Shown: positions 4,561-58,068 of the stretch, one piece after another
How positions within the stretch are numbered: position 1 is the first letter of the stretch
Layout of the letters: every line of letters starts with the position of its first letter
DNA from: Myxococcota bacterium
Lineage (GTDB): Bacteria > Myxococcota_A > UBA796 > JAJRTE01 > JBJTQF01
Direction of reading: 5' to 3'
Length of the DNA stretch: 64,000 nucleotides
NCBI GenBank assembly: GCA_046075485.1
Contig: JBJTQF010000129.1
Span: forward strand, 1,824-65,823
Notes under the pieces: model-generated
Told to the model about the DNA's origin: nothing
Seen by the model: only the letters and a program-made list of their open reading frames with translations
Databases searched by the model: none
Translations under genes and position numbers: made by a program

Positions 4561-4640
4561 GCGCGTGCGTGAGCGGACACACATCCCCTCACGAGCGCGT
4601 ACAGTCGCAGGCGTAGAGGGAACGGTCATCGGGAGGTGCT

Positions 4641-5750: not shown

Positions 5751-5761
5751 GGACGCCGACC

Positions 5762-10292: not shown

Positions 10293-10299
10293 CGGGAGC

Positions 10300-10430
10300 T
10301 GAAGTCTCGTGTGTGCGGATGCGTGGGTGCGTGCGGATGCGTGTGTGCGGGTGGGTGCGTGTGGGTGGGTGCGTGTGGGTGGGTGCGTGCGAGTGCGTGC
10401 GGATGCGTGTGTGCGGATGCGTGGGTTTTA
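10300..10430. repeat. GT-rich imperfect microsatellite-like tandem repeat (units approx gtgcgtg(g/c)g(g/a)tgc; runs of gggtg) in the convergent intergenic region
   Basis: Seen in the sequence. Lies between the histidine kinase stop and the M23 peptidase stop. Both overlapping ORFs are low-complexity (His/Pro/Thr-rich) artefacts. Confidence 0.7.
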
Positions 10431-11633
10431 TTCGATGGCCATTGCTTCGGGGGGGACGCGGATCCACTGGATGGGGTTGACGGGTTTGCCGTTCTCGCGC
10501 ACTTCCAGATACAGGTAGGGGCCTTGAAAGGAGCCGGTATCGCCGACGAGGGCGATTTTTTCGCCGGTTTTGACTTTGTCTCCTGCGTTTTTGAGGAGCT
10601 TGGAGGCGTGTGCATAGATGGAGTGGTATCCGTCGCCGTGGTCGATGATCATGAGCAGGCCGTAACCTTTGAACCACTCGGCGAGTTTGACTTCGCCCTG
10701 GTAGATGGCTTTGATGTCGGCACCGGCGGGAGCGGTGATGTCGAGTCCTCGGTGTGTCTCGCTGACTTTCATGCCTTCGAGTTTGTAGCGGCCAAAGGCG
10801 CGGGTGACTTTTCCGGCTGGGACGGGATAGGGAAGGCGACCAATCTGTGCGGCGAAGCCAGACTTTTCGTCGGCTTTTTGCCGGAGGGGTGATGCGGGTT
10901 CGGTGGAGCTTTTTTCAGCCACGGGTTTGGGGGGAGGAGGTTCCATCTTCCGGGCGAGTGCTGCGGCGGCCAGCTCCAGCTCTTTGAGTCGGCGAGCGTC
11001 GATGCCTTTTTCGGTGCGCAGCTTCTCGAGCAGCTCTTTTTTGCGGAGCCGTTCGCCCTGGGTTTGGACCATTTGTTGTTCGACGTCGGTGGTGAGTGCT
11101 TGGACTTGCAGGCGTTCGGTCTCGAGCTGTTCTTTGATTTCTCCGGCGCGGGCGATGGCACGGCGTTGTTTCTGGACCAGGGCCATGTCTCGCTCGATGA
11201 TGATCTGGAGGTATTTCATGCGCTTGAGGATCTCGGTGCCGGATCCGCCGCCGAGCAGGGCCTGCATAAAACCTTTGTTGCTGTATTTGTAGAGGGCGCG
11301 GAGCCGCTGTTGGAGGAGGACGCGGCGTTCGACGAGGCCATCTTCCAGCTCGGTGCGTTCTTGCTCGAGGCTGGCGATGCGCTCTTCGACTTGTTTCTGG
11401 CGTGTGCGGGCTTGCTCGAGCTTTTGTTCTTGTTCTTGGATGGCGCGGTCGATGGCTTCGAGGGCGTCGAGTACGGAGTCTTCCTGTTTGAGGGTTTCCT
11501 CGAGCTTTTGACGCTGTTGTTTGAGGGCGTCGGGGGCGGCTTGGCCGAGCAGGAGGGGAAGGATGAGGCATAGGAGGAGCAGCCGCGTGATGCGGAGGGG
11601 GGTGAGGGGGCGGTGTGGGCGGAGAGCGGGCAC
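10428..11633 (-). CDS. EnvC-like murein hydrolase activator: N-terminal coiled coil + C-terminal M23 (LytM) peptidase domain
   Basis: Signal/TM at the N-terminus, long heptad coiled coil (QKLEETLKQ... LEQERTELED...). C-terminal M23 motifs HRGLDI, DHGDGYHSIYAH, GDTGSFQGPYLYLEV. Confidence 0.75.
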   Translation of the reverse strand: MPALRPHRPLTPLRITRLLLLCLILPLLLGQAAPDALKQQRQKLEETLKQEDSVLDALEAIDRAIQEQEQKLEQARTRQKQVEERIASLEQERTELEDGLVERRVLLQQRLRALYKYSNKGFMQALLGGGSGTEILKRMKYLQIIIERDMALVQKQRRAIARAGEIKEQLETERLQVQALTTDVEQQMVQTQGERLRKKELLEKLRTEKGIDARRLKELELAAAALARKMEPPPPKPVAEKSSTEPASPLRQKADEKSGFAAQIGRLPYPVPAGKVTRAFGRYKLEGMKVSETHRGLDITAPAGADIKAIYQGEVKLAEWFKGYGLLMIIDHGDGYHSIYAHASKLLKNAGDKVKTGEKIALVGDTGSFQGPYLYLEVRENGKPVNPIQWIRVPPEAMAIE

Positions 11634-28721: not shown

Positions 28722-29879
28722 GTGCTTGTGCTCAGTCCGCGTGTTCGTCTGGGGCTCTTGCTGTCATCGCTGGCCCTGCTTTTGGTGGTCATGTATGCCA
28801 TTCGAGGGGTTTTATTGCCCTTCGTGCTGGCTTTTTTGAGTCTTTATCTGCTCAATCCGCTGGTGGAGCGTCTCACGCGCGTGCAGGTGGGCGCACGTCC
28901 GCTCCCGCGCGCGGTGGCGGTGGCGGTGGTATTGATCGGTGTGTTGGGGCTGCTCGCGGGTATTGTCAGCTACTTGGTGCCCGCGCTGGCTCAGGAGTTC
29001 CGTCCATTCCGGCAGAACCTGCCTCAGTATTATTATCAGCTCGTCAATACGCAGCTTCCCAACCTCATCCACTTTTTGCAGCGCACCGCCAACGAAGCGG
29101 GGCTGGAAATCAACGTGCAAGCAGCCCTCTTGGGCGGGCTGCCGGAGACCTTCAGCTCTGAGAATGGCTTCTTTTTGGTGGGAGAAGTGCAGAAGATCGT
29201 CGGGGGGTTTTTTGGCACCCTCTTCCGCTTTATCTTGGTCTTCATCTTGACCATGTTTTTGCTGCTCGACTGGCCCAAGATCCGAGACATCATCGCCAAC
29301 CTCGTACCGCCTCGATTTCGGCAGGTGCTGGGGGAGCTGGTGAAGTCATTGGATCGGGATCTCAGCGGCTCGATTCGAGGACAGCTCAGCATCTGCGCGA
29401 TCAACTTTGTGCTCACCACCCTTGGATTATGGGTACTTGGCGTAAAATATGCCCTCACGCTGGGGGTCATCGCCGGGGTTTTCTCTATTATTCCGGTCTT
29501 TGGCTCCATCATCAGCACCCTGCCGATTGTGCTGGTGTGCCTGACCGTCTCCATGTGGGATGCCGTCAAAGCCGTCCTGATGATCATCTTTATCCACCTG
29601 ATCGAAGCCAACATCCTCAACCCGAAGGTGATGGGCCATCATGTGGAGCTGCACCCGATCATCATTCTGTTTGCCATCATGGTGGGCGAACATCTGCTGG
29701 GACCGGTGGGCCTGCTGATCGGCGTGCCCATTGTGGCCGCGCTGCGCTCGCTCCTGCTCTTTGTGCTGCAACGCATTGCCGAGAACTCCGGCGAAGAGCC
29801 TCCCGGAGAGGGGGCCAACGCTGCTGCCGGAGTCCGTGAAGCCGCCACCTCTACCACCCCGGCCCCCCTCGCCAATTGA
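28722..29879 (+). CDS. AI-2E family transporter (PerM/YdiK/TqsA-like, UPF0118)
   Basis: GTG start with a GAGAGGGG RBS. About 8 TM helices and typical length. Conserved C-terminal region with ...IPIV... and charged tail. Confidence 0.6.
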   Translation: MLVLSPRVRLGLLLSSLALLLVVMYAIRGVLLPFVLAFLSLYLLNPLVERLTRVQVGARPLPRAVAVAVVLIGVLGLLAGIVSYLVPALAQEFRPFRQNLPQYYYQLVNTQLPNLIHFLQRTANEAGLEINVQAALLGGLPETFSSENGFFLVGEVQKIVGGFFGTLFRFILVFILTMFLLLDWPKIRDIIANLVPPRFRQVLGELVKSLDRDLSGSIRGQLSICAINFVLTTLGLWVLGVKYALTLGVIAGVFSIIPVFGSIISTLPIVLVCLTVSMWDAVKAVLMIIFIHLIEANILNPKVMGHHVELHPIIILFAIMVGEHLLGPVGLLIGVPIVAALRSLLLFVLQRIAENSGEEPPGEGANAAAGVREAATSTTPAPLAN

Positions 29880-30043
29880 CCGTTTCTTCCTACACCCATG
29901 CCCCTGACCGTTTCTTCCTACACCCATGCCCTTTGACCGCTGCTTTCTACACCCATGCCCTTTGAACTGTCCGACTTTTCGGACAGTGTCCGACTTTTCG
30001 GACACTCGGACACCCCCTCGGACACCTGCCCGGACACCTCCCA
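29880..30043. repeat. Cluster of tandem direct repeats and repeated hairpins right after the AI-2E stop: 3 x ~28 bp (ccgtttcttcctacacccatgccc...), 2 x tgtccga-cttt-tcggaca hairpin, 4 x cggacacc
   Basis: Seen in the sequence. The units are contiguous with no spacers, so it is not a CRISPR array. The hairpins may be terminators, or operators for the downstream gene. Confidence 0.75.
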
Positions 30044-37612: not shown

Positions 37613-37680
37613 CGCGCATCACGTAGGTACGCGCATCACGCCGGTACGCGCATCACGTAGGTACGCGCATCACTCAGGTA
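37613..37680. repeat. 4 x 17-bp tandem direct repeat (cgcgcatcacg(t/c)(a/c)ggta) downstream of glgC and upstream of the flotillin-like gene
   Basis: Seen in the sequence. Confidence 0.75.
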
Positions 37681-37724
37681 CGGCAGCAGGCGCTCGTGGA
37701 AGGCGACAGCAGGCAGGCGCAGGC

Positions 37725-39565: not shown

Positions 39566-40402
39566 GTGGACACGCTGGAAAAAGTCAGAGGGCAACATGG
39601 CATCGTCGGACGTCAACAGGAGCTGGAAGCCCTCTTTGCCTGCCTCAGCGCCGGTCGGCATGTGCTGCTCGAAGGTCCGGTGGCCGTCGGGAAAACGGCG
39701 CTCGCCCGAGCCTGCGCGGAGGTGCTCGAGCGTGGGGTGCTGCGGGTCGATGGGGATGGGCGCTTCACCGAGCAAAAGCTGGTGGGCCAGTTTGACCCGC
39801 CCGTGGTCATGCGCGAAGGGTATCACGCCGGTGCGTTCCTCCGAGGACCGCTGGTCCAAGCGATGGAGCAAGGGTCCATTCTCTTCATCAACGAGCTCAA
39901 CCGCATGCCCGAAGGGGTCCAGAATGTGCTCCTGCCGGTGCTCGACGAGGGCTCGCTGGTGGTGCCTCATCTGGGTCAGCTCCGCGCGGCACCTGGATTT
40001 TCGGTCATCGCCACGATGAACCCGAGGGAGTTTGTGGCCACCGGGCATCTCTCGGAAGCACTGCTCGACCGCTTCGAGCTGATTCAGCTCCGCCATCAGT
40101 CGGAGGCGGAGGAGCTGGAGATCGTGCTCCGCCATACACGTCCGCCCACACCGGATCGGGCGCTGGCGGAAGAAGCGGTGGCCATCGTGCGCCGGACTCG
40201 CCAGCATCCCCGCATTCGTCGAGGAGCCAGTGTCCGCGCAGCCATCGCACTGGTGGAGGTCGCGCGTGCGTTGGGGGGCATCGAGGCGCTCTCGCGTGCC
40301 GCTCAGGTGGCGCTCCCCGGTCGTATCGAGCTGCGTGAGGCTCAAGAGGGGGTCATGGAAGGGGTGCTGCTCGAGGTGGCGCCCGAGAAAAAAAAAAGAT
40401 AA
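39566..40402 (+). CDS. MoxR-like AAA+ ATPase
   Basis: GTG start with an AAGGAG RBS. Walker A LEGPVAVGKT, Walker B ILFINELNR, sensor region. Length about 280 aa. Confidence 0.7.
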   Translation: MDTLEKVRGQHGIVGRQQELEALFACLSAGRHVLLEGPVAVGKTALARACAEVLERGVLRVDGDGRFTEQKLVGQFDPPVVMREGYHAGAFLRGPLVQAMEQGSILFINELNRMPEGVQNVLLPVLDEGSLVVPHLGQLRAAPGFSVIATMNPREFVATGHLSEALLDRFELIQLRHQSEAEELEIVLRHTRPPTPDRALAEEAVAIVRRTRQHPRIRRGASVRAAIALVEVARALGGIEALSRAAQVALPGRIELREAQEGVMEGVLLEVAPEKKKR

Positions 40403-40437
40403 AACTGGCCACGGAGGATCTCAGCAAGACCGCCTCC

Positions 40438-41313
40438 ATGCAATATGAGGACGACCGCGACCGCAGCTCACCCTTTATTCCCAACCCAGAGGCGGGTGAT
40501 GAGGAGGCCATGCTCCCCGAAGGATGGGAGGCGGCCATCGAATACCACCGGCTCAAGCGGATCATCCCCGAGGGTCGTGTACGTGCGCGGGTGCGTGAGG
40601 CGGCGATTTCGGCGGTGCTCCAGCAGGCGATGGAGTGTGTTCGGCATGCTTCTCGTCCGATGCGGATCCGGGAGCAGGCGTGGCAGGAAGCGCCGGGGGG
40701 GGATATCGACCTGGAGCAGACACTCGACGCGGGTTATCTGCTGGAGCCGGAAGATCCTCAGCGGCTGCGGGTCTTACAACGAGAGGCGCGTGAGGCGGAT
40801 GTGGTGCTGATCCTCGACATGAGCTTGTCCATGACCGGTGAGAAGATCGCGCTGGTGGCGGTGGCAACAACGGTGTTGGCCTTTACCTTGCCAGCGGAGC
40901 GGCTCGGGCTGGTGGTCTTTGATTCTCAAGCGCATGTGCTCAAGCGGCTGGGGGAGGTGTTGCCGTTGCGGGAGCTGGTGCGGCGGCTGCTGGAGTTTCC
41001 GGCGAAGGGCTACACACACCTCTCGGATGGGCTGCGTAAGGGGCTCGAGGTGCTCCGGGAAGGCCGTCAAGCGGTTCGCTGTGGTGTTTTGATGTCGGAT
41101 GGGGTCTATAATGTAGGCTGGGATCCTGCGCCGCTGGCGACCCTCTATCCTCGGCTGCATGTGATCCAGGTGGGGGAGGGAGATGTCGAGTCTCGTGACA
41201 AGGGGCTCAGTCGCCGCATGGCCAGCAACGGGCGAGGCCGGTATGCACGCGCCGAACGTTATGAGGAGCTGCCTTCGATGACTTGGCGGCTGGTGCAGGA
41301 TCTCTTCCGCTGA
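40438..41313 (+). CDS. von Willebrand factor A (VWA) domain protein, partner of the MoxR ATPase
   Basis: MIDAS-like VLILDMSLSM and downstream VLMSDG. Directly follows the MoxR gene, which is the canonical pairing. Confidence 0.65.
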   Translation: MQYEDDRDRSSPFIPNPEAGDEEAMLPEGWEAAIEYHRLKRIIPEGRVRARVREAAISAVLQQAMECVRHASRPMRIREQAWQEAPGGDIDLEQTLDAGYLLEPEDPQRLRVLQREAREADVVLILDMSLSMTGEKIALVAVATTVLAFTLPAERLGLVVFDSQAHVLKRLGEVLPLRELVRRLLEFPAKGYTHLSDGLRKGLEVLREGRQAVRCGVLMSDGVYNVGWDPAPLATLYPRLHVIQVGEGDVESRDKGLSRRMASNGRGRYARAERYEELPSMTWRLVQDLFR

Positions 41314-44401: not shown

Positions 44402-44541
44402 AAGCCAGCAGGAAGAGGGGAGGGGCACACGCGCCTCAGAGGTGACAGAACAGCGGGCTCTACGCAGGCTCAAGAGTAGCGTGACGCATCAGACGGTACA
44501 TCAATACAAAAATGACTCTCCATCTGATGCGTTATGCTCAC

Positions 44542-45084
44542 TCATGTTTTGGAGGATGAGGACTCTAGCTTGATCGCCGCCAGCTTGTCCTGCAACGTTC
44601 CAAAAGACTGCGAAGGGGTGCCCTCCGTGTACGGCGCAGCGGAAGGTGCTCCAGTTCGACCCGCGACGGTATGATCCGCCCGAGCCTGCCCGGGCCGCTG
44701 TCCCGAGGGATAAGCGGTTCGTGTGCCTGCACCACCGCCATCACCTCCCGAAATCCTTGCTCGTTCTGTCTGTGTTGATTGCTGGGCGCGGGCCAGACGC
44801 CTGAGCCAGCCAAGCTGCCAGCGCAGGTCTGCTTCCGTGGGAGCAAGCGACTGATGTACTGTGTGCAGTAGCCAATCCAACACCTCCTTGTGAGCCTTTT
44901 CGATCTCCTCTCGCGCGGTGAAAGCCGTGTTCTCCAGGCGCTCGAGCAGCTCGACGGCGTCCTGGACACTTCCGCCCTGTGCCAGACATTCGAGCGCATC
45001 CTGCATAAAACGTTCATGGTTTGACGTGTTCATACCGGCGGCGGCCTGTTCTAACTTTTGGAGCGTGTGGGTCTTCGAATGCAC
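44542..45084 (-). CDS. Small alpha-helical protein, candidate Cas11 (Csm2-like small subunit); last gene of the cas operon
   Basis: GTG start with a GGGAGG RBS 8 nt upstream, 1 nt after the upstream RAMP stop. Predicted all-helical about 110-aa core plus a disordered Gly/Ala-rich tail. Assignment is by position and composition only. Confidence 0.35.
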   Translation of the reverse strand: MHSKTHTLQKLEQAAAGMNTSNHERFMQDALECLAQGGSVQDAVELLERLENTAFTAREEIEKAHKEVLDWLLHTVHQSLAPTEADLRWQLGWLRRLARAQQSTQTERARISGGDGGGAGTRTAYPSGQRPGQARADHTVAGRTGAPSAAPYTEGTPSQSFGTLQDKLAAIKLESSSSKT

Positions 45085-45085
45085 G

Positions 45086-46150
45086 TCAACAACCTCCCTG
45101 ATGCAGCGTGATCAGTTGTTTTTCGCCCTCGTTCCATCGATCTTCCCAGCTCACAAAGTGGTCACGAAGCGTCGCACGCTCCATCGATACAAGGTGCCGT
45201 TGGTGATCGTAGAGCTCAATGGACTTCAGCTCCGGCTTGACACGACCGAAGCCGAGCGCACGACCTGCGCCGACCTTGAGATAGGAGGCAGGCTCACATC
45301 CCAGAGCGGTCAGCAGTCCCCCGAGCTCCTCCGGCAAGAGGTTCTGAAAGATCAGCGTGCCGGTGAGCCAGACGTTTTTTGGGATCACCTCGACCTTAAA
45401 GGGCTTGGGCTTTTTGGCATTCGGCGCAGGCGCAGGCGCAGAGACGGTGGCGGTGCTGTTCGAGAGGGCAAATTTACGCCCGTGCAGCGTGCTCACCTCA
45501 AAGTAGGCGTCGCTGTTGGGTGACGATTTTCTTGCAACCCCCAGATGGTGGAGGTTCGGGCTAAACTGAGCTGGGAGTTCCGCCAGCTCAGTGGTCTCGC
45601 CAGACGGTACTGCATACGCTTCTAAGACCAAGTCTGAGCAGGTGAGACGCCCTCGTTGACTCTCTCTGCCTGCACATCCAAAGAGCGCACACGCCGGACA
45701 CATCATTGCGGCGCGCGGATCCACTTGACAGCGATGGAAGGCCGCCCCCTGTATGGCACTCGGGAGGAGCTGCGCGTACCCCACGCGAGTGGTGGAGCGG
45801 ATCTTCTCTTTGTTATGGGCTTTGAGCTTGGTCACACTCACGCAGCTCTTGGTGAGGGCTTCATAACGAGCCCGGAGCAGTCCTTTTAAGCTGGAGCCCG
45901 GAATACCAAGCTGGCCTGCGATGCGCATGCAGCTCCGCACCACCTCGCCGTTGACCAGACGTTTCCCCCCAGAGCCGACATGAACCGGCTGCTCGGTCAA
46001 GAAACGGATCTCCAAACGCCCCGAGAGTGTGCCTTCGCAGCGTCGATCCAGCCTCGCCTCGCGACGCCGTTTACACGCCACATGGGGAGAAACCTGTACA
46101 AACTCATAGCCCTGTGGGATCTGCTTTTTGGAGAGAGTCGATGAGCTCAT
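45086..46150 (-). CDS. cas7: Type III Cas7-family RAMP protein (Csm3/Csm5/Cmr-like)
   Basis: G-rich loop GIPGSSLKGLLRARYEAL. Cys cluster CPACALFGC (RAMP zinc-finger/FG motif). Start overlaps the upstream gene stop (ATGA). Confidence 0.75.
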   Translation of the reverse strand: MSSSTLSKKQIPQGYEFVQVSPHVACKRRREARLDRRCEGTLSGRLEIRFLTEQPVHVGSGGKRLVNGEVVRSCMRIAGQLGIPGSSLKGLLRARYEALTKSCVSVTKLKAHNKEKIRSTTRVGYAQLLPSAIQGAAFHRCQVDPRAAMMCPACALFGCAGRESQRGRLTCSDLVLEAYAVPSGETTELAELPAQFSPNLHHLGVARKSSPNSDAYFEVSTLHGRKFALSNSTATVSAPAPAPNAKKPKPFKVEVIPKNVWLTGTLIFQNLLPEELGGLLTALGCEPASYLKVGAGRALGFGRVKPELKSIELYDHQRHLVSMERATLRDHFVSWEDRWNEGEKQLITLHQGGC

Positions 46151-47091
46151 GTCGCCCCTCCCAGTGTGTTGCGTGCATGTTCTAACCAGGTTTGAAGCTG
46201 CTCCGGTGAGGGCTCAAAGCGAACTGCCAGCCCTCGGCGAAGTCCTGGTTCACCGGTCAGCTCAGCGTCCGGCTCCAGACCGTAGTCCAGCCGTTCCCGC
46301 TCCGTCGCCAGCCTGCCCACGCCGGTTGCTGGAGCACCCTCTCGCCCAGACTGCTCATGCAGAAAGGACTCCACATGCACCCGCACGAAGCCCAGCCCTC
46401 GACTCTTGCCAGAGCCAAGCTGGACAAAACCGAGGTTGAGCTCTTCAAGGGCCGAGGCGACCAGCCCAAGCTGCCAGAGCTGATAGTTTTCAAAGCTCAG
46501 CTCGCCCCAGAAAGAGACCCCCACTGGCACCAGCTCTTGATCAAACGGACCATCGGCCACCGAACCCTTGATGCGGTCAATGGCCACATTCAGCCGAAGT
46601 TCCGTCTTGTTGGCCGCTTGGAGGTTGTGGAGCTGCGCCGCTGAGAGCGGCTCCTCTTGGTTCGGCCAGGGAAAGAAGTCTCGCACTCCGACTCGTCCCT
46701 TGAGGACCGTGGAGCCAAAAGTACGACATGCCGAACAGTGCATTTTGTAAACGTCAGAGGTGGAGAGGGGAGGCTCCTGCTTACGGCGCTTGTGAACACG
46801 AACACTACATGACAGTTCCTGTTCTTTCTTGTTTTCAAATGGATTACACGCCCCTTGCCGCGTCCCAAAAGACGACCCCCGAATGCTCGCTTCCACCGCC
46901 GCACGTAACACCCCCTTAAAGCTCGAGCCCGGGATGTAAACGGTCGAGCCATGCTGAAGGTGTCGCGTCCGAACACACACCAAGTCCGCCAGTGTGGGAT
47001 CCAAGCCTGCAAATCCCGCTCGAATGAGCAGCGGCGAAACCGTCTCGAGACGAAGGCGGAGCACCGCCCGATTATAGCTCTTACGAAACAT
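46147..47091 (-). CDS. cas7: Type III Cas7-family RAMP protein (Csm3/Cmr4-like)
   Basis: YIPGSSFKGVLRAAVEA G-rich loop. CSACRTFGS. C-terminal GSGKSRGLG glycine-rich segment. Confidence 0.8.
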   Translation of the reverse strand: MFRKSYNRAVLRLRLETVSPLLIRAGFAGLDPTLADLVCVRTRHLQHGSTVYIPGSSFKGVLRAAVEASIRGSSFGTRQGACNPFENKKEQELSCSVRVHKRRKQEPPLSTSDVYKMHCSACRTFGSTVLKGRVGVRDFFPWPNQEEPLSAAQLHNLQAANKTELRLNVAIDRIKGSVADGPFDQELVPVGVSFWGELSFENYQLWQLGLVASALEELNLGFVQLGSGKSRGLGFVRVHVESFLHEQSGREGAPATGVGRLATERERLDYGLEPDAELTGEPGLRRGLAVRFEPSPEQLQTWLEHARNTLGGAT

Positions 47092-47989
47092 GTTGAGCCT
47101 CCTTTACCACAAGCGCCAGTGCCTGACGATACTTCTCTAGGCGCTCCAAGAGGTCATCTCCGTTGAGTTTTTCGACACCTTTCCCTTCCAGTAGGCTGCG
47201 AGCATCCAGTCGTTCAAGCGAATCCCAGTGCAGAGAGACACGCCCCAACCCTCGCGAGGTGAAGCCCCCCAGCGCCGTAAACCCTTCGTGGAGCTGGTCA
47301 AAGCCCACGGTCAGCAGTCCCATCGCCCAGGGGGACGGATTGTCAACAAAGACCTCCAGGGTAAAACGAGCGCCTGGCGAGACCACCTCAAAGTCGTACT
47401 TCTGGCTGTTGTGAACAGTACGCAGATCCCGATCAATGGCCACACCATCCCGAAGTTCAATGGGAAGGCGACGACGGCCTCGCCATGCTCGCTCCTGAAG
47501 CAGCAGGTCCGAGAAGCGTACATGGCTGGCCACCGCCCGGGAGCCCAGGATACGACAGATGCAGCAATGCTGCTCCAGCTTCACGGCGTCGTGCCTGCCT
47601 CGTCGATGCCAGCCGCAGCTTCCAGTGCCGTTGCGCTGATCGGACTCCGCCTCGAGCAGCGGATCGCAGGCCCACAGCCCCGAGGTGGGAGGCAAGTCCG
47701 CACCACGAACCAGCGCCTCCAGGGTGGCACGAATGGCTCCCTTCAGGCTGCTACCCGGAATGAATGGGAACCCATCTGCATCTCGCATGACGGGCAGATC
47801 GACGGCGTTGAGCTCGTCGGAGTCTCCCCCGCCGATCCGAAGCCCGGTCTGAGCGACCAACGAGCCCCTGAGCACCAGTCGCTCTCGAAGTGTATGAAAG
47901 TTCGCCACTTCTTCGGCGGAGATCTCAGTGCGGTTCGGGGGGAATGGTGGAGCGGTGAGTGGCTCCTGCTCTGACCTCTCGATGCTCAT
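47081..47989 (-). CDS. cas7: Type III Cas7-family RAMP protein (Csm3/Cmr4/Cmr6-like)
   Basis: FIPGSSLKGAIRATLEAL. CCICRILGS. GGFTSRGLGRV glycine-rich segment. 11-nt overlap with the downstream gene. Confidence 0.8.
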   Translation of the reverse strand: MSIERSEQEPLTAPPFPPNRTEISAEEVANFHTLRERLVLRGSLVAQTGLRIGGGDSDELNAVDLPVMRDADGFPFIPGSSLKGAIRATLEALVRGADLPPTSGLWACDPLLEAESDQRNGTGSCGWHRRGRHDAVKLEQHCCICRILGSRAVASHVRFSDLLLQERAWRGRRRLPIELRDGVAIDRDLRTVHNSQKYDFEVVSPGARFTLEVFVDNPSPWAMGLLTVGFDQLHEGFTALGGFTSRGLGRVSLHWDSLERLDARSLLEGKGVEKLNGDDLLERLEKYRQALALVVKEAQHVS

Positions 47990-50289
47990 GAGCGTGATCC
48001 TCCCTGAGAGCGTGGAGCCGGGGTAGCGTCAGCGCGACGTGTCGCCGGGTGATCGGAGCGTCGGTCACCTGAATGTCGGTCTTTCTCCACCGCTTGATGG
48101 TAGGTGAAGGCCCGTGTGAGAAAGGTTGTATACAGTCTCCAGCCATAGACTCGTAAGGGGTCGTCGTCCTCTGCGATGCTATTCATGGCGGCTTCGGCCC
48201 CACCAATGACGGACTGGACCAGCTTGAGATTCCAGCCGGTGGTTCTTTCTCCCCGTCCTGCCTGATAGCGGAGGTAATTTTTAATCTCGGCCTCTACTTC
48301 TGCTTGGCTACAGATGCCGATGAGATGATTAAACTGGCTCTTATTGGGGGTTCCCTTGCGCTCTGAGTTGAACGCCTCCTCCATGACCCGCTCGGCCTCC
48401 ACGACCAAGTGCTTCCGATAAGGTCTGATGCGGCTGTCCAAGTCTGAGCCTTCCAGCGGGCTGGACTCCTGCTTGTCTGAGGAGAGGTGTCTGCTGTCCA
48501 TGTCGTCTCCTTGTGTAAAAAACGGATCGTAAATCAAGAGCTGACCAAAACCTTGATGACGTCTGTCACCACTTCCAGACGCCTCCAAGTGGGCCAGCCG
48601 TTCGAGCATGTTCTTTTCATCGAGCTGAGCAGGGAAACGCACCACAAAGACGGCTCCCGCTGCGACAGCCTGGACACAGGTCATCTGACCGCTGCGCTGG
48701 TCCCAGCTCCCTTCCCGACTAAAACGACGCTGAGAAAGGAAGAGCTCAGCGCCCAGGTCTTGAGCAATACTCTGCGCGCCATCTCCCCCATCCAGCGGGA
48801 TCAGCGGCGAGAGCAACGTGATGGGCACCAGTCGGCTGGACTGTTTTTCATCCAGCTTGAGCTTCTTCAACAGCTCACGCAGCTTTTGTTGGAACTGTTG
48901 ACGCCGCTCCACCAGCGGCTTCCAGCGGGGTGGCTCGAGCACCTCCACCTGAACCTGCCCCCAGCCGTGAGCACTTCCACGCCCCAGGGCCCGCAAGGAG
49001 TTCAACCCCTGGGCCAGTCGAACGCGGCTCTCCGCAGGAATCTGGCGGATGGAGCCTTCAAAAACAGCTCCCGGCTGAAGCTGCTCCTGACAAAAGAGCT
49101 GCTCGTGGGCTGCGGCATCGCGACCACGATCCAGCGACACTCGAGTACGGGTCTGAGTCGAGGGAGCACTGCGATGGGTACGCCAGCCGTGTGCGTTCCG
49201 CAGCGGCGCGCCACATGTACACGTCAAGCTCCGGATTCGGCTGAGGCGGTTCATCTGCTCGGGCTGCTCGATGAGGGTTGCCGCCATCAGCTCCAGCAGA
49301 GAATCCCGAAGTTTATGTGTTCGTCCCGCTTGTTTACAGAGCATGGCGGTGATCGGAAGGGGGCCCGGCACGCTGTGCGGAAAAACACACGGCTCGGTGG
49401 GGTGCAGAAAGCCAAAGTGAGCACCAGAATTTGCAACCAGTGCTTGAAATGCAGCATCCGCATTAGGATCAAGCGCTTGTGCATTCAGGATCTCCGCGAG
49501 GGTAAACCCAACGGCCCCTCGGAGTGTGCTGCCAGGCACATCCAGCCGACACTCGAGCAGGTTACGCTCACTGACGGGCGCTGCCAATGCAGTCGGCGAG
49601 CGTAGGGTCACGCGCACACTCACGGCGTCGGGAGAGGGAAGCGTAAGGTGCGGTTCAGATGGCGGGGAACACAGCTCGAGCTGGAGCTCGGCGCGTGCCA
49701 TGCCTCGGCTTCTTCCACTGCCGATATGGGTGGTCGCTCGAACGGCGGCCTTGAGATGAAACAGAAGCTGCTCATCCTTGAGGCACCCAGTCGCCTCAAA
49801 ACGGAGCTGGCGGCGAGAGGGCACCCGCTGCATGAAGAGTCGCTGCTCCTCTGCCGAACGAGACGCCCGAGAGCGCCCGAGACCAGGGCGCGTCATCCAG
49901 CCGGGCTCTGTCTGACAATGTGCATCATGCAGATCAAGGGCAGAAAAACGGAGGGATTGTGCGGGTAAATCTTCACGCTGGCCACCAAACAGACGGCAGG
50001 GCACACAAGGCCGTCCATTCTCGAGGGTACAGGGTTGAGCAGCTTGGAGGCTTCCGTAGGGGACACCGGTTCCGCCTGCGCAGACGGGAGCGGGCTGGTC
50101 GGGTGAGGCCATTCCTCTCAGCAGTGCCTCCAGGGATTGGCGGAGGGCTCCTCGGATGGCGGTGGCAGGGATAAAGGCCCTTCCATCCTGAGCGGCGTGC
50201 ATGATATGAACTCCAGCGGGGGCTGCGGACACACCGCCGATCAACAGTCCTCCACTGGGAAAGGTGAGCGTGAGCTTAAGCTGTTTCAT
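47986..50289 (-). CDS. Large (767 aa) fusion protein with two RAMP domains (Cas7/Cas5-like) and a C-terminal helical extension
   Basis: RAMP 1: FIPATAIRGALRQSLEALL, CVPCRLFGG, GSGRSRGMARAEL. RAMP 2: LDVPGSTLRGAVGFTLAE, LGRGSAHGWGQVQVEV. About 230-aa helical C-terminus. ATGA overlaps at both ends. Confidence 0.7.
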   Translation of the reverse strand: MKQLKLTLTFPSGGLLIGGVSAAPAGVHIMHAAQDGRAFIPATAIRGALRQSLEALLRGMASPDQPAPVCAGGTGVPYGSLQAAQPCTLENGRPCVPCRLFGGQREDLPAQSLRFSALDLHDAHCQTEPGWMTRPGLGRSRASRSAEEQRLFMQRVPSRRQLRFEATGCLKDEQLLFHLKAAVRATTHIGSGRSRGMARAELQLELCSPPSEPHLTLPSPDAVSVRVTLRSPTALAAPVSERNLLECRLDVPGSTLRGAVGFTLAEILNAQALDPNADAAFQALVANSGAHFGFLHPTEPCVFPHSVPGPLPITAMLCKQAGRTHKLRDSLLELMAATLIEQPEQMNRLSRIRSLTCTCGAPLRNAHGWRTHRSAPSTQTRTRVSLDRGRDAAAHEQLFCQEQLQPGAVFEGSIRQIPAESRVRLAQGLNSLRALGRGSAHGWGQVQVEVLEPPRWKPLVERRQQFQQKLRELLKKLKLDEKQSSRLVPITLLSPLIPLDGGDGAQSIAQDLGAELFLSQRRFSREGSWDQRSGQMTCVQAVAAGAVFVVRFPAQLDEKNMLERLAHLEASGSGDRRHQGFGQLLIYDPFFTQGDDMDSRHLSSDKQESSPLEGSDLDSRIRPYRKHLVVEAERVMEEAFNSERKGTPNKSQFNHLIGICSQAEVEAEIKNYLRYQAGRGERTTGWNLKLVQSVIGGAEAAMNSIAEDDDPLRVYGWRLYTTFLTRAFTYHQAVEKDRHSGDRRSDHPATRRADATPAPRSQGGSRS

Positions 50290-51818
50290 GGGATCTTCTC
50301 CAGGAGTCGAGCCAGGGTGAGCAGTCCAGGCTTGGGCATGTCGTCGATCATCACCTCTTTCTGCTTCCAGTCGGCGCCAATGCTGGCAAAATAGTGCTTC
50401 CAGCTCTCCGAGCGGGCCACCTGGTAGCGGAATTGGTTATGCGCTTCTTCCATCACCTCTGCTCGATGGATGTCTGCCAACCAGCTCCGTTGGGAGGACT
50501 GCACCCTCTTGAGGGCCTCTGCTCCGATGCGGGTCTGTTTCCAGTCATCGGCATCCAGGGAGAATGGATGTCCGTTGCGGTAGAGGTCCAGTGTTTGTGC
50601 TTCGATGCGGAGCTCTCCTGCGGTCATCAGTGCCACCTCCAACCCGCTGCGCCAGCCTCCTTCGCGGCATCCTTGTTTAGCGTGGTCCTCGAGCTGATGT
50701 GCCAAGCTCAGCAGGCGGGAAGCGGGAAAGGCACCGTTGGCGATGAGCAATCCGACGCCCAGCCCTGCTGCTTTCAGTGTGTTTTTTGCTCCGGTCTCTT
50801 CCAAGACGCTGTATTTACCCACAGAACTTAGAATCTCTGCTGCGTCTGTCAGTCCTTCTTCAATGGTTTGAGTCAGACATAGCACGTAGGTCAGACTGTC
50901 TTTGGGTGCGAGGAAGGCTCTCACATCGTCGCCTCCAGAGGCCACCGAGATGAGGGCATTCCCAACGGCGGCAGCCGCTTTTGTTTGTGCGCCGGCAAAG
51001 ATCTCTCCGACAAGCGCGGACACCGTGGCACACAACTCCAGCGTCGAGAGGCTCGAGAACAACTGTCCCAGGTTATTGCCATCCGCTGAGACCACAGCCA
51101 CCTGCTGATCTGGCGAGAGCTCGATCAGCGAGCCCTGTTTGACGGACTTCCCGCTGAGCCGAATGAAGGCGTCACAGCGAGGACAGATGAGCTCATGGCG
51201 CGCGTCGGGGCGCGGAGAGGGGACAGTCCCTTTGAAGGCATGGCAATCTGCGCAGGCGTCTGCTCGTGAGGTGGGAAGCTCACCGCCGGGAACGGTGGCT
51301 CCATCTTTGGCCAGCTCAAGCCGCGTCCGCAACAGCTCCAGGCAGGATTTGGCGCTTTTCGTATCGTAGGGGGACGAGGCTGTCGCCAGGACGCCCCCGA
51401 AGCTCTGCTCAAAGAAGGTGTGCTTGAGCTCATGCTGAAGCTGTTTCGCTTTGTCCTCTGACGAAGCGAGCAGCATGCCACGGCCTCCGGCGGCGAAGAT
51501 GGCCCCTGCTCTCTTCCGTTGTTGTGTGTCAAACTGCTTCAGCCACTGGCTGGCACCGTACATGGCAATCGGGCGACTATTGGCGGCAATGAGAGACTGA
51601 ATTCCATTGACATCGTAGGCCACCAGCCACGGACGCGCTCCGGCTTGCTGGATGGCCTTACGTGTGTTGGCCTCCGTCTTCTTGCAGAGGGATTTGAGAT
51701 CTGAGCTCAAGCATGCTCCTCCTGTTGAGGGTCGTGATGGTCCCGCAGTGTGGCCTGACGGGTATCTCGATGGAGGGATTGCACGCTGAGTCGGAAGAAG
51801 CTGACACCTGCTCGTCAC
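50286..51818 (-). CDS. cas10: Cas10-like large subunit lacking an HD domain (palm/cyclase domains with GGDD; treble-clef zinc finger)
   Basis: LVAYDVNGIQSL (palm 1), CADCHAF...ICPRCD zinc finger, VVSADGNNLGQLF and ISVASGGDDV (palm 2 GGDD), helical C-terminal domain. No H..HD motif at the N-terminus. The start is uncertain (GTG at 51818, no good RBS). Confidence 0.65.
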   Translation of the reverse strand: MTSRCQLLPTQRAIPPSRYPSGHTAGPSRPSTGGACLSSDLKSLCKKTEANTRKAIQQAGARPWLVAYDVNGIQSLIAANSRPIAMYGASQWLKQFDTQQRKRAGAIFAAGGRGMLLASSEDKAKQLQHELKHTFFEQSFGGVLATASSPYDTKSAKSCLELLRTRLELAKDGATVPGGELPTSRADACADCHAFKGTVPSPRPDARHELICPRCDAFIRLSGKSVKQGSLIELSPDQQVAVVSADGNNLGQLFSSLSTLELCATVSALVGEIFAGAQTKAAAAVGNALISVASGGDDVRAFLAPKDSLTYVLCLTQTIEEGLTDAAEILSSVGKYSVLEETGAKNTLKAAGLGVGLLIANGAFPASRLLSLAHQLEDHAKQGCREGGWRSGLEVALMTAGELRIEAQTLDLYRNGHPFSLDADDWKQTRIGAEALKRVQSSQRSWLADIHRAEVMEEAHNQFRYQVARSESWKHYFASIGADWKQKEVMIDDMPKPGLLTLARLLEKIP

Positions 51819-56862: not shown

Positions 56863-58068
56863 TTAGGGATCTCCTCCCGCTCGCGCAGCGATCTCACTCA
56901 GGAGCGCATGGTCTGGGATCATATAGGGCTCCGGCGGGGTGGTGATGCCCTTCTCGCGCAGGCGTGCGTGGAGCTGCGTCGCATGACTCACCCCCAGCGC
57001 CTGAACCTGCACCCCCTGGCGTTTATGAATCAGCTCGGCAATGGAGGGGGTATCATCGGTGCTCTCGATCACCTCACCTTGAACATCGCGTGTTTTCAGC
57101 ACATTTTCGGCACCGTCCGAGATGAGCACCACCAGCCGCTCATGCGCAGGGTTGCCGTGACGCACCAGCAGCTCCCCCGCATAAACCAGGGCCCGCCCGA
57201 TGTGGGTCATCCGGCCATTTTCCGCCCTCAAGAGGCTGACCGCATCCTGAAACTGACGCACCACCCCCGGCGAGACCCCCGCATTCAGAGGCAGCAGCCC
57301 TCGCGTGCGCGGAAAGACCTGCTGACATTGATCGGTAAAGGCCACCAGCGCAAAACTCGACGCCCTGCCTGGGGTTTTGGTACGCTGCTCGAGCAGGCGC
57401 AGCAGCGACCGCTGCACCGCATCCATCCGGGTGATGCGCCGACGACCCTCGTGCAGCCCGTACCCCTCGTCGAGGGTCATATCACGAATGTTCATCGAGC
57501 CGCTACAGTCCGCCAAGATCACCACGTCGATGCCCACATGCTGACGAGAGGTAAAGAGCTTCACCCGCGTGTTTGTCCCCACTCGAAAGATTGTTGACAT
57601 CTCATTTGGTGCAGGCTTTTGCTGTCTGACCCGGTACAACACATCGTCGAGGGTGATCAGGAGCCCCTCGCGTGTGCTCGCCGCATCGGTCGTAAAGAGC
57701 AGGTGGGGCAGCTCTCGGCTCTCGTTGAGACACGCCAGGGCCTTGTCGCTGGACAGCTCGATCACCGGCTCCAACCACAGCTCTTCGAGCATCACCACCG
57801 GATTTTCTTGCCAGGTGAGCTGCCAGCGGACCCGCTCCTGCTGCAAGCTGAGGGTCTCGGCCAGACGCGCGCTGAGGGCCACCAAGCCGGGCGGGATGCG
57901 GGGATGAGGCAAGATCTGGACGGGCTCGGCACGGTTCGCGTCCAGGTTGTGCAAAATCCCCACCACCTGTTCCTGGAGCACCTGCGGCGAGAGATAGAGG
58001 CGATTTCCTTGCACCATGCCATTCTGATGCATCACACATAACAGTTGTTCGCTTGAGCTTAGTCTCAT
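56863..58068 (-). CDS. VWA-domain protein
   Basis: MIDAS motif VVILADCSGSM and downstream VVLISDGAEN. 4-nt overlap with the upstream gene. Confidence 0.55.
   Translation of the reverse strand: MRLSSSEQLLCVMHQNGMVQGNRLYLSPQVLQEQVVGILHNLDANRAEPVQILPHPRIPPGLVALSARLAETLSLQQERVRWQLTWQENPVVMLEELWLEPVIELSSDKALACLNESRELPHLLFTTDAASTREGLLITLDDVLYRVRQQKPAPNEMSTIFRVGTNTRVKLFTSRQHVGIDVVILADCSGSMNIRDMTLDEGYGLHEGRRRITRMDAVQRSLLRLLEQRTKTPGRASSFALVAFTDQCQQVFPRTRGLLPLNAGVSPGVVRQFQDAVSLLRAENGRMTHIGRALVYAGELLVRHGNPAHERLVVLISDGAENVLKTRDVQGEVIESTDDTPSIAELIHKRQGVQVQALGVSHATQLHARLREKGITTPPEPYMIPDHALLSEIAARAGGDP

What the first reader, a model, noticed from the sequence alone, without database searches (positions are those of the whole stretch)
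44542..51818. Standalone type III-like (III-D-like) CRISPR-Cas effector operon with no array, Cas6, adaptation genes or CARF effector in the window
Six co-directional minus-strand genes with 1-11-nt start/stop overlaps (ATGA junctions at 46147/46150, 47986/47989 and 50286/50289) encode a Cas10-like protein, a 767-aa protein with two RAMP domains, three single RAMP proteins with the canonical G-rich loop (FIPGSSLKGAIR, YIPGSSFKGVLR, GIPGSSLKGLLR; a fourth copy FIPATAIRGALR sits in the fusion protein), and a small helical candidate Cas11. RAMP Cys clusters (CxxC...FG) are present in each. No spacer-separated direct repeats were found in the window. The nearest repeat clusters (29.9 kb, 37.6 kb) are contiguous tandem repeats. 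This could be an orphan effector complex using a distant array, or a derived non-canonical system.
Basis: partly seen in the sequence, partly recalled or inferred. Interest (0 to 1): 0.85.

Follow-up and report, generated by a model that had tools for sequence, protein, structure and literature searches.

The report
Orphan type III-D CRISPR effector operon
This is an intact six-gene operon for an RNA-guided type III-D CRISPR surveillance complex in a Myxococcota genome that sits alone, without the CRISPR array, guide-processing, spacer-acquisition or downstream killer genes found next to most of its relatives; this is a recognisable variant of a known kind of system, not a new kind.

Summary
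Window 44542-51818 (minus strand) carries six overlapping, intact genes. They are: an HD-less Cas10 with an intact GGDD cyclase site; a 767-aa Cas7-Cas5(Csx10)-Cas11 fusion; three single Cas7 proteins; and a 180-aa helical protein. A confident model of the 180-aa protein has a Cas11/Cmr5 fold. No CRISPR array, Cas6, Cas1/Cas2 or CARF/SAVED gene lies anywhere in the 64 kb, and the flanks are housekeeping genes.

The operon belongs to a mainly Myxococcota family (Sorangium, Polyangium, Nannocystis and MAGs). Half of its members in my sample do have arrays close by. Many also have TIR-SAVED, SAVED-peptidase, CARF or Csx3 genes, and some have Cas6 and Cas1/Cas2. The family is therefore a genuine cyclic-oligoadenylate-signalling type III-D variant, lying between III-D1 and the Synechocystis III-Dv system. 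The window copy is a stripped-down "effector-only" locus.

Most likely it is loaded with crRNAs from an array elsewhere in the genome. This could not be tested, because only this contig is available. Array-less type III loci are well documented. Two points are mildly new: a second, divergent Cas11-like subunit sits where Csx19 would be expected, and His replaces the catalytic Asp in the first Cas7 domain.

The parts
50286..51818 (-). cas10: a minimal Cas10 made of Palm1, a Zn-finger, Palm2 and a Cas11-like C-terminal domain, with no HD nuclease domain. The ORF is 510 aa. The probable true start is TTG at 51710, giving 474 aa.
   Evidence: - Pfam Cas10-Cmr2_palm2 1e-10, above the cut-off; PADLOC Cas10 7e-20.
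- Alignment with 13 orthologues shows these as invariant: D69, GGxG 111-114, Cys189/192/212/215, D246-G-N and G295-G296-D297 of GGDD. The protein begins directly with Palm1.
- An AGGAGG sequence lies 7 nt upstream of TTG codon 37.
47986..50289 (-). Fusion gene cas7-cas5(csx10)-cas11, 767 aa.
- Cas7 module: about aa 1-205 (49675-50289).
- Csx10-type Cas5: about aa 222-591 (48517-49626).
- Csm2-like Cas11: about aa 617-737 (48079-48441).
   Evidence: - Pfam RAMPs 5e-12 (aa 15-197).
- NCBIfam Csx10 1.5e-25 and PADLOC Cas5_IIId 5e-27 (aa 222-591).
- PADLOC Csm2 7e-7 (aa 620-737).
- The C-terminal module is 45% identical (E 4e-27) to the free-standing 173-aa Cas11 gene of Sorangium locus L005.
- A family profile hits the III-Dv Cas7-Cas5-Cas11 structure 8s9t_A at 2e-9.
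- The catalytic-loop position is His28, not Asp.
47081..47989 (-). cas7 (Csx7/Csm3-like), 302 aa, predicted to be an active RNA-cleaving backbone subunit with catalytic Asp64.
   Evidence: - NCBIfam Csx7 6e-47, above the cut-off.
- Best PDB match is the III-D Cas7 paralogue 8bmw_H at 6e-18.
- The 'D-L/M-P-V-x-R/K-D' loop is conserved in all 12 true orthologues.
46147..47091 (-). cas7, 314 aa, second stand-alone backbone subunit. Asp36 sits at the catalytic-loop position.
   Evidence: - Csx7 2.5e-25 and PADLOC Csm3 4e-34.
- The loop position is D or E in 10 of 11 orthologues.
45086..46150 (-). Terminal cas7, 354 aa, TIGR03986-like. It is the counterpart of the III-Dv Cas7-insertion and of Cas7.4 of Cas7-11, but lacks the large insertion. 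It is probably non-catalytic.
   Evidence: - TIGR03986 1e-28 and gRAMP C-terminal region 1e-16.
- PDB hits: gRAMP 8d9e_B 2e-10, III-D2 9wxh_D and III-Dv 8s9t_E.
- No conserved acidic residue in the catalytic loop.
44542..45084 (-). Second, divergent Cas11-like small subunit, 180 aa. Residues 1-~110 form a five-helix domain and the C-terminal tail is disordered. It takes the operon slot where III-D1/III-Dv loci often carry csx19.
   Evidence: - No hit in Pfam, NCBIfam, PADLOC or PDB sequences.
- Conserved as the last operon gene in 11 of 15 loci clustered.
- AF2 model with a 39-sequence MSA: pLDDT 88-98 over residues 1-110.
- P0180 is a natural fusion of the terminal Cas7 with this domain.

Best explanation
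The locus is the effector module of a type III-D CRISPR-Cas variant.

**Shown**
- The gene content is Cas10 (no HD domain; cyclase site intact), a Cas7-Cas5(Csx10)-Cas11 fusion, three single Cas7 proteins and a second Cas11-fold protein.
- All six genes are intact and conserved.
- Nothing else CRISPR-related lies within 44 kb on one side or 12 kb on the other.

**Inferred mechanism, by analogy with the solved Synechocystis III-Dv complex**
- One copy of each protein assembles around a single fixed-length crRNA.
- Cas5 holds the 8-nt repeat-derived 5' tag.
- Four Cas7 modules form the backbone.
- The Cas10 C-terminal domain, the fused Cas11 and the 180-aa Cas11-like protein form the minor filament.
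- Binding of a complementary transcript is followed by cleavage at 6-nt intervals. Cleavage is by the two Cas7s that keep the catalytic Asp (D64 of the 302-aa protein and D36 of the 314-aa protein). The first Cas7 module has His28 in place of Asp, and the terminal Cas7 has no acidic residue there.
- Target binding also switches on the Cas10 Palm domains to make cyclic oligoadenylate. There is no HD DNase.

**Inferred source of guides and effectors**
- The operon has no array, Cas6 or cOA-sensing effector of its own. The crRNA, and any CARF/SAVED effector, must therefore come in trans from another CRISPR-Cas locus in the same genome. Many array-less type III loci work this way.
For: **Identity**
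- Profile hits.
- PDB relatives.
- Cas11 fold of the sixth protein.
- Fusion and fission of Cas11 within the family.

**Catalytic competence**
- The Cas10 metal-binding residues, GGDD and the Zn-finger are invariant across 14 orthologues.
- The Cas7 Asp is conserved.

**The family is a real CRISPR system that signals with cOA**
- CRISPR arrays lie within the fetched flanks of L007, L008, L010, L013, L015, L016, L017, L018 and L019. Their 35-37-nt repeats have type-III-like 3' ends.
- TIR-SAVED occurs in L005, L014, L017, L018 and L025.
- SAVED-M48 peptidase lies directly upstream of cas10 in L006 and L008, and by clustering in L010. A 579-aa SAVED protein occupies the same position in L026.
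- CARF-TM occurs in L013 and CARF_Card1 in L026.
- Csx3 occurs in L007.
- Cas6 occurs in L026, L017 and L018.
- Cas1, Cas2 and RT occur in some loci.

**Maintenance**
- All six ORFs are intact in the window and in orthologous locus L022.
- dN is 0.19-0.47 against a saturated dS of about 2 for the five core genes.
- The GC content of the operon matches that of the flanks.

**Precedent**
- III-Dv makes cOA, lacks a functional HD domain and has one copy of each subunit (PMC11026444).
- Most III-B, III-C, III-E and III-F loci lack arrays (PMC12669027).
Against: - No array, Cas6 or cOA effector could be shown for this genome. Only one contig of the MAG (69,382 bp, of which the window covers 64,000) is visible, so the in-trans supply is an assumption.
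- Saturated dS means the low dN/dS reflects long-term constraint and cannot exclude recent loss of function.
- No sigma-70-type promoter match lies upstream. The scan does not cover other promoter types.
- His replaces the catalytic Asp in the first Cas7 module, so the number of cleavage sites is uncertain.
- The stoichiometry and the position of the sixth protein are inferred from fold, operon position and one fusion protein, not from a complex model.
Confidence: 0.6

Rival explanations
1. Decaying remnant. The array, Cas6, adaptation genes and cOA effector were deleted, and the effector operon is a still-intact but functionless leftover on its way to pseudogenisation.
For: - The window has none of the partner genes that most relatives keep within a few kb.
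- The sixth protein is the least conserved gene: 39% identity to L022, pN/pS 0.61.
- No promoter-like site was found.
Against: - All six ORFs are full length, with translationally coupled overlaps.
- Every Cas10 and Cas7 catalytic residue that is conserved in the family is kept.
- The nearest relative with flanks (L022, 52-75% identity for the five core proteins and 39% for the sixth) is an intact six-gene operon in a different, non-syntenic neighbourhood. It has no array in its 11-kb contig. L001 is likewise bare within 10 kb. The effector-only state therefore recurs and persists.
Confidence: 0.2
2. Apparent orphan caused by the assembly. The array and partner genes are on the same chromosome close by, but fall outside this contig or in the 5.4 kb of the contig not covered by the window. 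CRISPR arrays often break metagenome assemblies.
For: - The source contig is 69,382 bp against a 64,000-bp window.
- In several relatives the arrays lie at contig ends (L003/L007, L016, L019).
Against: - In relatives the arrays lie 0.3-5 kb from the operon. Here 44 kb downstream and 12 kb upstream are array-free and filled with housekeeping genes. Any array would be at least 12 kb away, so the locus is still 'in trans' in the usual sense.
Confidence: 0.1
3. Exapted, non-defence RNA-guided or RNA-binding complex. It would use a non-CRISPR transcript as guide, or none, for example for gene regulation. It would be independent of arrays and of cOA effectors.
For: - Effector-only loci embedded in housekeeping genes recur in at least two distant lineages: the window with L022, and L001.
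- His replaces the first Cas7 catalytic Asp in 22 of 32 family members.
Against: - The cyclase site is fully conserved, which makes sense only if a signal is produced and sensed.
- Closely related operons sit next to arrays and SAVED/CARF effectors.
- No candidate non-coding RNA was detected near the operon.
Confidence: 0.07

Closest known systems
Type III-Dv effector of Synechocystis sp. PCC 6803 (PDB 8s9t; PMC11026444)
   Same: - Same operon logic and order: cas10, then a cas7-cas5(csx10)-cas11 fusion (791 aa there, 767 aa here), then further cas7 modules ending in a TIGR03986-type Cas7.
- Cas10 has no working HD domain but keeps GGDD.
- cOA signalling is demonstrated there; here it is inferred from the SAVED/CARF neighbours of relatives.
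   Different: - The two middle Cas7s are separate genes here, not a Cas7-2x fusion.
- The terminal Cas7 lacks the large insertion (354 aa against 795 aa).
- No Csx19 (a beta-rich protein essential for III-Dv assembly). An all-alpha second Cas11-like protein is present instead.
- The first Cas7 module has His where III-Dv has catalytic D26.
- Sequence similarity is remote (profile E 2e-9 over one stretch).
- The Synechocystis locus has Cas6-2a, adaptation genes, an array, Csm6 and Csx1. The window has none of these.
Type III-D1 (e.g. Saccharolobus solfataricus Csm, PDB 8bmw)
   Same: - Csx10-type Cas5.
- Several non-identical Cas7 paralogues encoded as separate genes.
- The 302-aa Cas7's best solved relative is 8bmw_H (6e-18).
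   Different: - In III-D1 the Cas7, Cas5 and Cas11 are separate genes; here they are fused.
- Within this family the roughly 600-aa members show an intermediate state: Cas7-Cas5 fused with Cas11 separate.
Type III-D2 (Gammaproteobacteria HyVt-522, PDB 9wxh; PMC13294483)
   Same: - A Cas7-Cas5 fusion plus a minimal HD-less Cas10.
- A TIGR03986-type terminal Cas7.
- Single copy of each subunit.
   Different: - III-D2 fuses the other three Cas7s into Cas7x3 and has no separate Cas11.
- Its Cas10 has GGDE and makes SAM-AMP/SAM-AMP2, sensed by CorA.
- This family has GGDD in most members and SAVED/CARF neighbours rather than CorA.
Type III-E Cas7-11 / gRAMP
   Same: - The terminal Cas7 here is most similar to the Cas7.4 region of gRAMP (2e-10).
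- Cys-rich knuckles are present in the Cas7 modules.
   Different: - III-E is a single polypeptide without Cas10 or Cas5.
- It processes its own pre-crRNA and signals through the Csx29 protease.
Array-less type III loci that borrow crRNAs (common in III-B, III-C, III-E and III-F; e.g. Marinomonas mediterranea III-B using I-F crRNAs, PMC5576922)
   Same: - An effector module without its own array or adaptation genes, presumed to be loaded in trans.
   Different: - For III-D, arrays are the usual state in the classification figure (PMC12669027).
- Here even Cas6 and every cOA effector are missing locally.
- The donor array has not been identified.

Membership tests
Type III CRISPR-Cas effector module | Cas10 large subunit with Palm/cyclase domains | tested here: met
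   - Pfam Cas10-Cmr2_palm2 42 bits against a cut-off of 27; PADLOC Cas10 7e-20.
- GGDD, the Palm1 Asp and a four-Cys Zn-finger are invariant in 14 orthologues.
Type III CRISPR-Cas effector module | Cas7 (RAMP) backbone subunits, a Cas5 and a Cas11 small subunit | tested here: met
   - Four RAMP/Cas7 modules, one Csx10 Cas5 and one Csm2-like Cas11 module.
- A second protein with a Cas11 fold.
Subtype III-D | Cas5 of the Csx10 type (the signature gene) | tested here: met
   - TIGR02674 Csx10 1.5e-25 over aa 222-591. This is 90 bits, below NCBIfam's equivalog cut-off of 177.
- Three PADLOC Cas5_IIId models at 5e-27 to 2e-25.
Subtype III-D | csx19 gene (frequent in III-D1/III-Dv, but not universal) | tested here: not met
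   - No ORF in the operon or the window matches any Csx19 model (PADLOC, NCBIfam).
- The sixth gene is all-alpha with a Cas11 fold, whereas Csx19 is described as beta-rich.
Variant III-Dv (Synechocystis type) | cas7-cas5-cas11 fusion gene | tested here: met
   - The 767-aa protein has the three modules in that order.
- A family profile hits 8s9t_A.
Variant III-Dv (Synechocystis type) | cas7-2x double fusion and an insertion-containing terminal cas7 | tested here: not met
   - The two middle Cas7s are separate genes of 302 and 314 aa.
- The terminal Cas7 is 354 aa, with the TIGR03986 match split around where the insertion would be.
Variant III-D2 | Cas7x3 triple fusion, Cas7-5 without Cas11, CorA effector, GGDE Cas10 making SAM-AMP | tested here: not met
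   - No Cas7x3.
- Cas11 is present.
- Cas10 has GGDD.
- No CorA was found in the window. CorA was not reported among the listed neighbour families of relatives, but only the 25 commonest of 66 families were shown, so this is not exhaustive.
Complete (autonomous) CRISPR-Cas locus | Adjacent CRISPR array | tested here: not met
   Five independent scans of the 64 kb found none. No relic of relatives' repeats is present.
Complete (autonomous) CRISPR-Cas locus | Cas6 processing nuclease and Cas1/Cas2 adaptation module | tested here: not met
   - PADLOC on 46 window ORFs found none.
- tblastn with the family's own Cas6 proteins found nothing.
cOA-signalling type III system | Catalytically intact Cas10 cyclase site | tested here: met
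   D69, the GGxG motif, D246 and G295-G296-D297-D298 are all present and conserved.
cOA-signalling type III system | CARF or SAVED sensor-effector encoded with the system | tested here: not met
   - None in the window.
- Present next to relatives L005, L006, L008, L013, L014, L017, L018, L025 and L026, and in L010 by clustering with L008.
cOA-signalling type III system | Actual synthesis of cOA on target RNA binding | not testable with these tools
   Needs biochemistry.

The most novel reading that the evidence does not exclude
The effector-only state may not be a passive loss. Under this reading, the Myxococcota III-D lineage includes stable, array-less and Cas6-less operons (the window, L022, L001). 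These would be guided by crRNAs made by an unrelated CRISPR type, or by non-CRISPR transcripts. The lineage-specific features would be adaptations to that lifestyle: a second Cas11 paralogue replacing Csx19, often carrying an extra C-terminal domain, and a conserved His in place of the first Cas7 catalytic Asp. Possible roles include altered guide loading or target handling.
Probability: 0.1. Interest if true: 0.6.

Novelty: new member of a known kind. Interest (0 to 1): 0.35.

Why it matters
**Genome annotation.** The six genes are currently labelled only 'RAMP superfamily' or 'hypothetical'. They can now be named as a type III-D-variant effector module.

**Evolution of type III systems.** This Myxococcota family holds two intermediate steps on the proposed path from multi-subunit III-D1 towards single-protein III-E, as a naturally occurring series:
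- Cas7-Cas5 fused with Cas11 free (about 600-aa members).
- Cas7-Cas5-Cas11 fused with all other Cas7s still free (this locus).

**An uncharacterised subunit.** The family contains a Cas11 paralogue where Csx19 is expected. There are about 120 clusters at 50% identity in 1.84 billion representatives, and no Pfam, PADLOC or PDB sequence match.

**The orphan state.** It is not surprising, since array-less type III loci are common. It does make a testable prediction: the genome should carry a compatible array and a cOA effector elsewhere.

Tried and rejected
1. **Single-protein scan of genome contigs with the fusion protein.** No confirmed relatives. It succeeded only with a family alignment.
2. 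**Single-sequence PDB searches.** Cas10 gave nothing. The fusion protein gave only a marginal hit.
3. **First AF2 model of the sixth protein, with 5 sequences.** pLDDT was 49, so it was unusable and was not searched. A 39-sequence MSA fixed this.
4. **hhalign of the sixth protein's domain against the family's own fused Cas11 domain.** Probability 0.2%, so the two Cas11-like modules are not recognisably related by sequence. The Cas11 assignment of the sixth protein rests on fold only.
5. **My early reading that L015/L006 carry a type I-G system.** The hit is to the Cas6-like C-terminal half of the Cas5-6g models, in a stand-alone ~250-300-aa RAMP next to a true PF10040 Cas6 in L026. I therefore dropped 'I-G donor system' as a conclusion.
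6. **The PADLOC 'RtcR CARF_AAA_HTH' hit in the window.** It is a GAF-sigma54 activator at 15385-17220 and has no CARF domain.
7. **Attempts to extend beyond the window or identify the NCBI record.** They failed or returned only short Logan contigs from run SRR29270176.
8. **Conserved neighbours.** None are shared between the window and related loci beyond the six genes.
9. **Rfam.** No hits in the window.
Full report
**1. The observation**

ORF listing confirms six co-directional minus-strand genes at exactly the stated coordinates. They have 4-nt ATGA-type overlaps at 46147-46150, 47986-47989 and 50286-50289, an 11-nt overlap at 47081-47091 and a 1-nt gap at 45085.

Three profile libraries agree on what the genes are:
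- The 510-aa ORF is a Cas10. Pfam palm2 scores 42 bits against a cut-off of 27, and PADLOC Cas10 gives 7e-20.
- The 767-aa ORF carries three modules: an N-terminal Cas7 (RAMP, aa 15-197), a Csx10-type Cas5 (aa 222-591; 5e-27) and a Csm2-type Cas11 (aa ~617-737; 7e-7).
- The 302-aa ORF is a Csx7/Csm3 Cas7 (6e-47, above NCBIfam's equivalog cut-off).
- The 314-aa ORF is a second Cas7 (2.5e-25).
- The 354-aa ORF is a TIGR03986-type RAMP (1e-28) that also matches the C-terminal Cas7 region of type III-E gRAMP.
- The 180-aa ORF has no hit in any library.

**2. What is missing from the window**

No CRISPR array was found by any of five methods:
- the repeat finder;
- TRF;
- k-mer chaining;
- a degenerate 24-mer three-copy chain scan;
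- Rfam at gathering thresholds, which gave zero hits of any kind.

The repeat clusters at 29.9 and 37.6 kb are contiguous tandem repeats.

PADLOC scanning of 46 other window ORFs found no Cas6, Cas1, Cas2, CARF or SAVED protein. The single 'CARF_AAA_HTH' hit is a GAF-sigma54 activator at 15385-17220, matched through its AAA+ module. tblastn with 17 accessory proteins taken from related loci found nothing at E<=0.01. These included Cas6, TIR-SAVED, SAVED-M48, Card1, Csx3, CARF-TM, SMODS, E1-E2 and JAB.

The flanks are ordinary chromosomal genes of the same GC content: AraC, an MBL-fold hydrolase, NlpC/P60, GH5, MoxR/VWA, a glycogen-type nucleotidyltransferase and others.

**3. Source and family**

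The fusion protein is identical to a protein of a Myxococcota MAG on a 69,382-bp contig. It has 98 detectable relatives, and nearly all the named ones are Myxococcota (Sorangium, Polyangium, Nannocystis, Minicystis and MAGs).

Two architectures occur:
- About 600 aa, covering 77% of the query. This is Cas7-Cas5, followed by a separate ~170-aa gene.
- About 725-840 aa. This is the full Cas7-Cas5-Cas11 fusion, seen in 19 of the 98.

The separate small gene of Sorangium locus L005 is 45% identical (E 4e-27) to residues 621-730 of the window fusion. The C-terminal module is therefore a Cas11 that has been fused or split within this family.

I fetched 26 loci, some of them duplicates or fragments of the same contig. 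The conserved module is always the same: cas10 (~470-530 aa in the Myxococcota-type loci, 571 aa in the two Acidobacteriota relatives), the fusion with or without a separate cas11, three cas7 genes, and a last gene homologous to the window's 180-aa ORF. No other gene is shared between the window and these loci.

**4. The family is a genuine, signalling CRISPR-Cas system**

*Arrays.* Arrays with 35-37-nt repeats and periods of about 70-75 nt lie within the fetched flanks of L007 (the same contig as L003), L008, L010, L013, L015, L016, L017, L018 and L019. None lies near the window, L001, L005, L006, L014, L022, L025 or L026.

*Sensor-effectors and other accessory genes in relatives.*
- TIR-SAVED in L005, L014, L017, L018 and L025.
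- A SAVED-M48 peptidase immediately upstream of cas10 in L006 and L008, and by clustering in L010. A 579-aa SAVED protein occupies the same position in L026.
- CARF-TM in L013 and CARF_Card1 in L026.
- Csx3 in L007.
- A PF10040 Cas6 in L026, with homologues in L017 and L018.
- Cas1, Cas2 and a reverse transcriptase in some loci.

*Cas10.* The alignment of 14 orthologues shows these as invariant: the Palm1 Asp (D69), a GGxG loop, a four-Cys Zn-finger, D246-G-N, and GGD(D/E). The protein starts directly with Palm1, so there is no HD domain. The most economical reading is that target RNA binding triggers cOA synthesis, which SAVED or CARF effectors sense. This has been demonstrated for the architecturally closest solved system, Synechocystis III-Dv (PMC11026444).

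**5. Anatomy and predicted mechanism of the window complex**

*Cas7 catalytic positions.*
- The 302-aa Cas7 keeps the Csm3-type catalytic loop (AV-D64-LPVMRD), which is conserved in all true orthologues.
- The 314-aa Cas7 has D36 at the equivalent position, which is D or E in 10 of 11 orthologues.
- The terminal 354-aa Cas7 has no conserved acidic residue there. This is as expected for a Cas7.4/Cas7-insertion counterpart. Its best solved relatives are gRAMP, the III-D2 TIGR03986 subunit and the III-Dv TIGR03986 subunit.
- In the fusion's own Cas7 module, the residue that aligns with catalytic D29 of the III-D2 Cas7-5 protein is His28. It is His in 22 of 32 family members, Asp in 7 and Ser in 3.

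I therefore predict two certain cleavage sites and one doubtful one.

*The sixth protein.* Its family has only about 120 representatives among 1.84 billion clusters. The conserved ~110-aa domain is almost always N-terminal. Total length ranges from 84 to 346 aa, because many members carry an extra C-terminal domain that the window copy (and L006 and L026) lacks. No member matches Pfam at a meaningful level, and none matches a PDB sequence.

One representative, P0180 (638 aa), is a fusion of the terminal Cas7 (39% identical to the window's, E 4e-58) with this domain. This argues that the two sit next to each other in the complex.

*Proposed complex.* Together with the Cas11-like C-terminal domain of Cas10, the operon supplies three small-subunit-like modules for a four-Cas7 backbone. 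This fits a complex with one copy of each gene product, as measured for III-Dv. That stoichiometry is an inference, not a result.

**6. Classification**

The Csx10 signature places the operon in subtype III-D. It shares the cas7-cas5-cas11 fusion with III-Dv. It lacks III-Dv's cas7-2x fusion, insertion-bearing terminal cas7 and csx19. It lacks III-D2's Cas7x3, its CorA association and its GGDE/SAM-AMP chemistry (PMC13294483). It thus sits between III-D1 and III-Dv, and the ~600-aa relatives represent an even earlier step.

I found no paper describing this Myxococcota family. The search covers open-access text only, and the classification papers' supplementary locus tables were not examined. 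I therefore rate the locus as a new member of a known kind with some variant features, not as a new variant class.

**7. Why is it alone?**

Four readings were weighed.

(a) *In-trans use of crRNAs, and of a cOA effector, encoded elsewhere.* I favour this reading for three reasons:
- The genes are intact and translationally coupled, and they keep every conserved catalytic residue.
- The orthologous operon in L022 (52-75% identical for the five core proteins, 39% for the sixth) is equally intact, lies in a different neighbourhood, and has dN well below a saturated dS.
- Array-less type III loci are well documented (PMC12669027; PMC5576922).

(b) *A decaying remnant.* This cannot be excluded, because dS saturation hides recent events.

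(c) *An assembly artefact.* This is unlikely to change the picture, because 12-44 kb of array-free housekeeping DNA flanks the operon.

(d) *Exaptation to a non-CRISPR role.* This is the most novel reading, but it has no positive support.

None of these can be settled without the rest of the genome, which the tools could not reach.

**8. Verdict**

Two refinements apply: there is a third (Cas11) module in the 767-aa protein, and a probable TTG start for cas10 at 51710. One guess is now supported by structure prediction: the 180-aa protein has a Cas11 fold.

This is an orphan effector module of a type III-D variant. It is useful for annotation and as an evolutionary intermediate, and it offers a small uncharacterised Cas11-like family for follow-up. 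It is not a surprising system in kind.

Noticed in passing
L006 1633-8440; L008 1143-8486 and 16013-16849; L010 (same layout); L026 1566-8378: In Sorangium and Polyangia relatives the III-D-variant operon is embedded in a CBASS-like island. The order is Ser/Thr kinase, ECF-type sigma factor, kinase, SMODS cyclase, then a SAVED protein (SAVED-M48 peptidase in L006/L008) directly upstream of cas10. L008 and L010 also have E1-E2 (Cap2-like) and JAB (Cap3-like) genes. This recalls the sigma/anti-sigma-controlled CBASS plus type III-B island of Myxococcus xanthus (PMC11506125), but with a III-D effector.
   Followed up: partly
window 50206-50208 (His28 codon of the fusion protein, minus strand): The catalytic-loop residue of the fusion's Cas7 module aligns with the catalytic Asp (D29) of the III-D2 Cas7-5 protein. 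It is His in the window and in 22 of 32 family members, Asp in 7 and Ser in 3. A second His (H31) is nearly invariant (30 of 32). The functional meaning is unknown.
   Followed up: partly
protein P0180 (638 aa; metagenomic representative, no locus fetched): A natural fusion of the terminal Cas7 (residues 7-324) with the sixth-protein Cas11-like domain (residues 355-459). The DNA could not be inspected, so a gene-calling or frameshift artefact is not excluded.
   Followed up: partly
window 51710-51818: The cas10 ORF as listed starts at GTG 51818. An in-frame TTG at 51710 has an AGGAGG sequence 7 nt upstream and gives a 474-aa protein, matching the length of orthologues (466-530 aa).
   Followed up: yes
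window 44484-44532: A 10-bp perfect inverted repeat (ACGCATCAGA ... TCTGATGCGT) with a 29-nt loop lies 10 nt after the operon's last stop codon, between the convergent cas operon and the MBL-fold gene. No T-run follows it. It may be a weak bidirectional terminator.
   Followed up: no
window 2479-7387: A PrkA kinase, DUF444 and SpoVR-like gene triad, which is a conserved stress/starvation operon.
   Followed up: no
window 10295-10440: A GT-rich degenerate micro-repeat (GTGCGTGCGG-like units, about 10 copies) in an intergenic region.
   Followed up: no
window 29876-30042 and 37613-37682: A 29-nt x3.1 tandem repeat is immediately followed by a 19-nt x1.9 palindromic unit (TGTCCGACTTTTCGGACAG) and a 12-nt x3 repeat. 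A separate 17-nt x4.1 tandem repeat lies at 37.6 kb. None has spacers, and none resembles the CRISPR repeats of related loci.
   Followed up: partly
L015 3058-3963; L006 683-1414; L026 3-449: A stand-alone ~250-300-aa RAMP matches only the Cas6-like C-terminal half of the type I-G Cas5-6g (Csb2) models. In L026 it lies next to a canonical PF10040 Cas6. It may be an additional crRNA-processing or crRNA-binding factor of this family.
   Followed up: partly
window 39566-41313 and 56863-58068: A MoxR-type AAA+ ATPase with an adjacent VWA protein, and a second VWA protein about 5 kb upstream of cas10. They were not linked to the cas operon by conservation in related loci.
   Followed up: no
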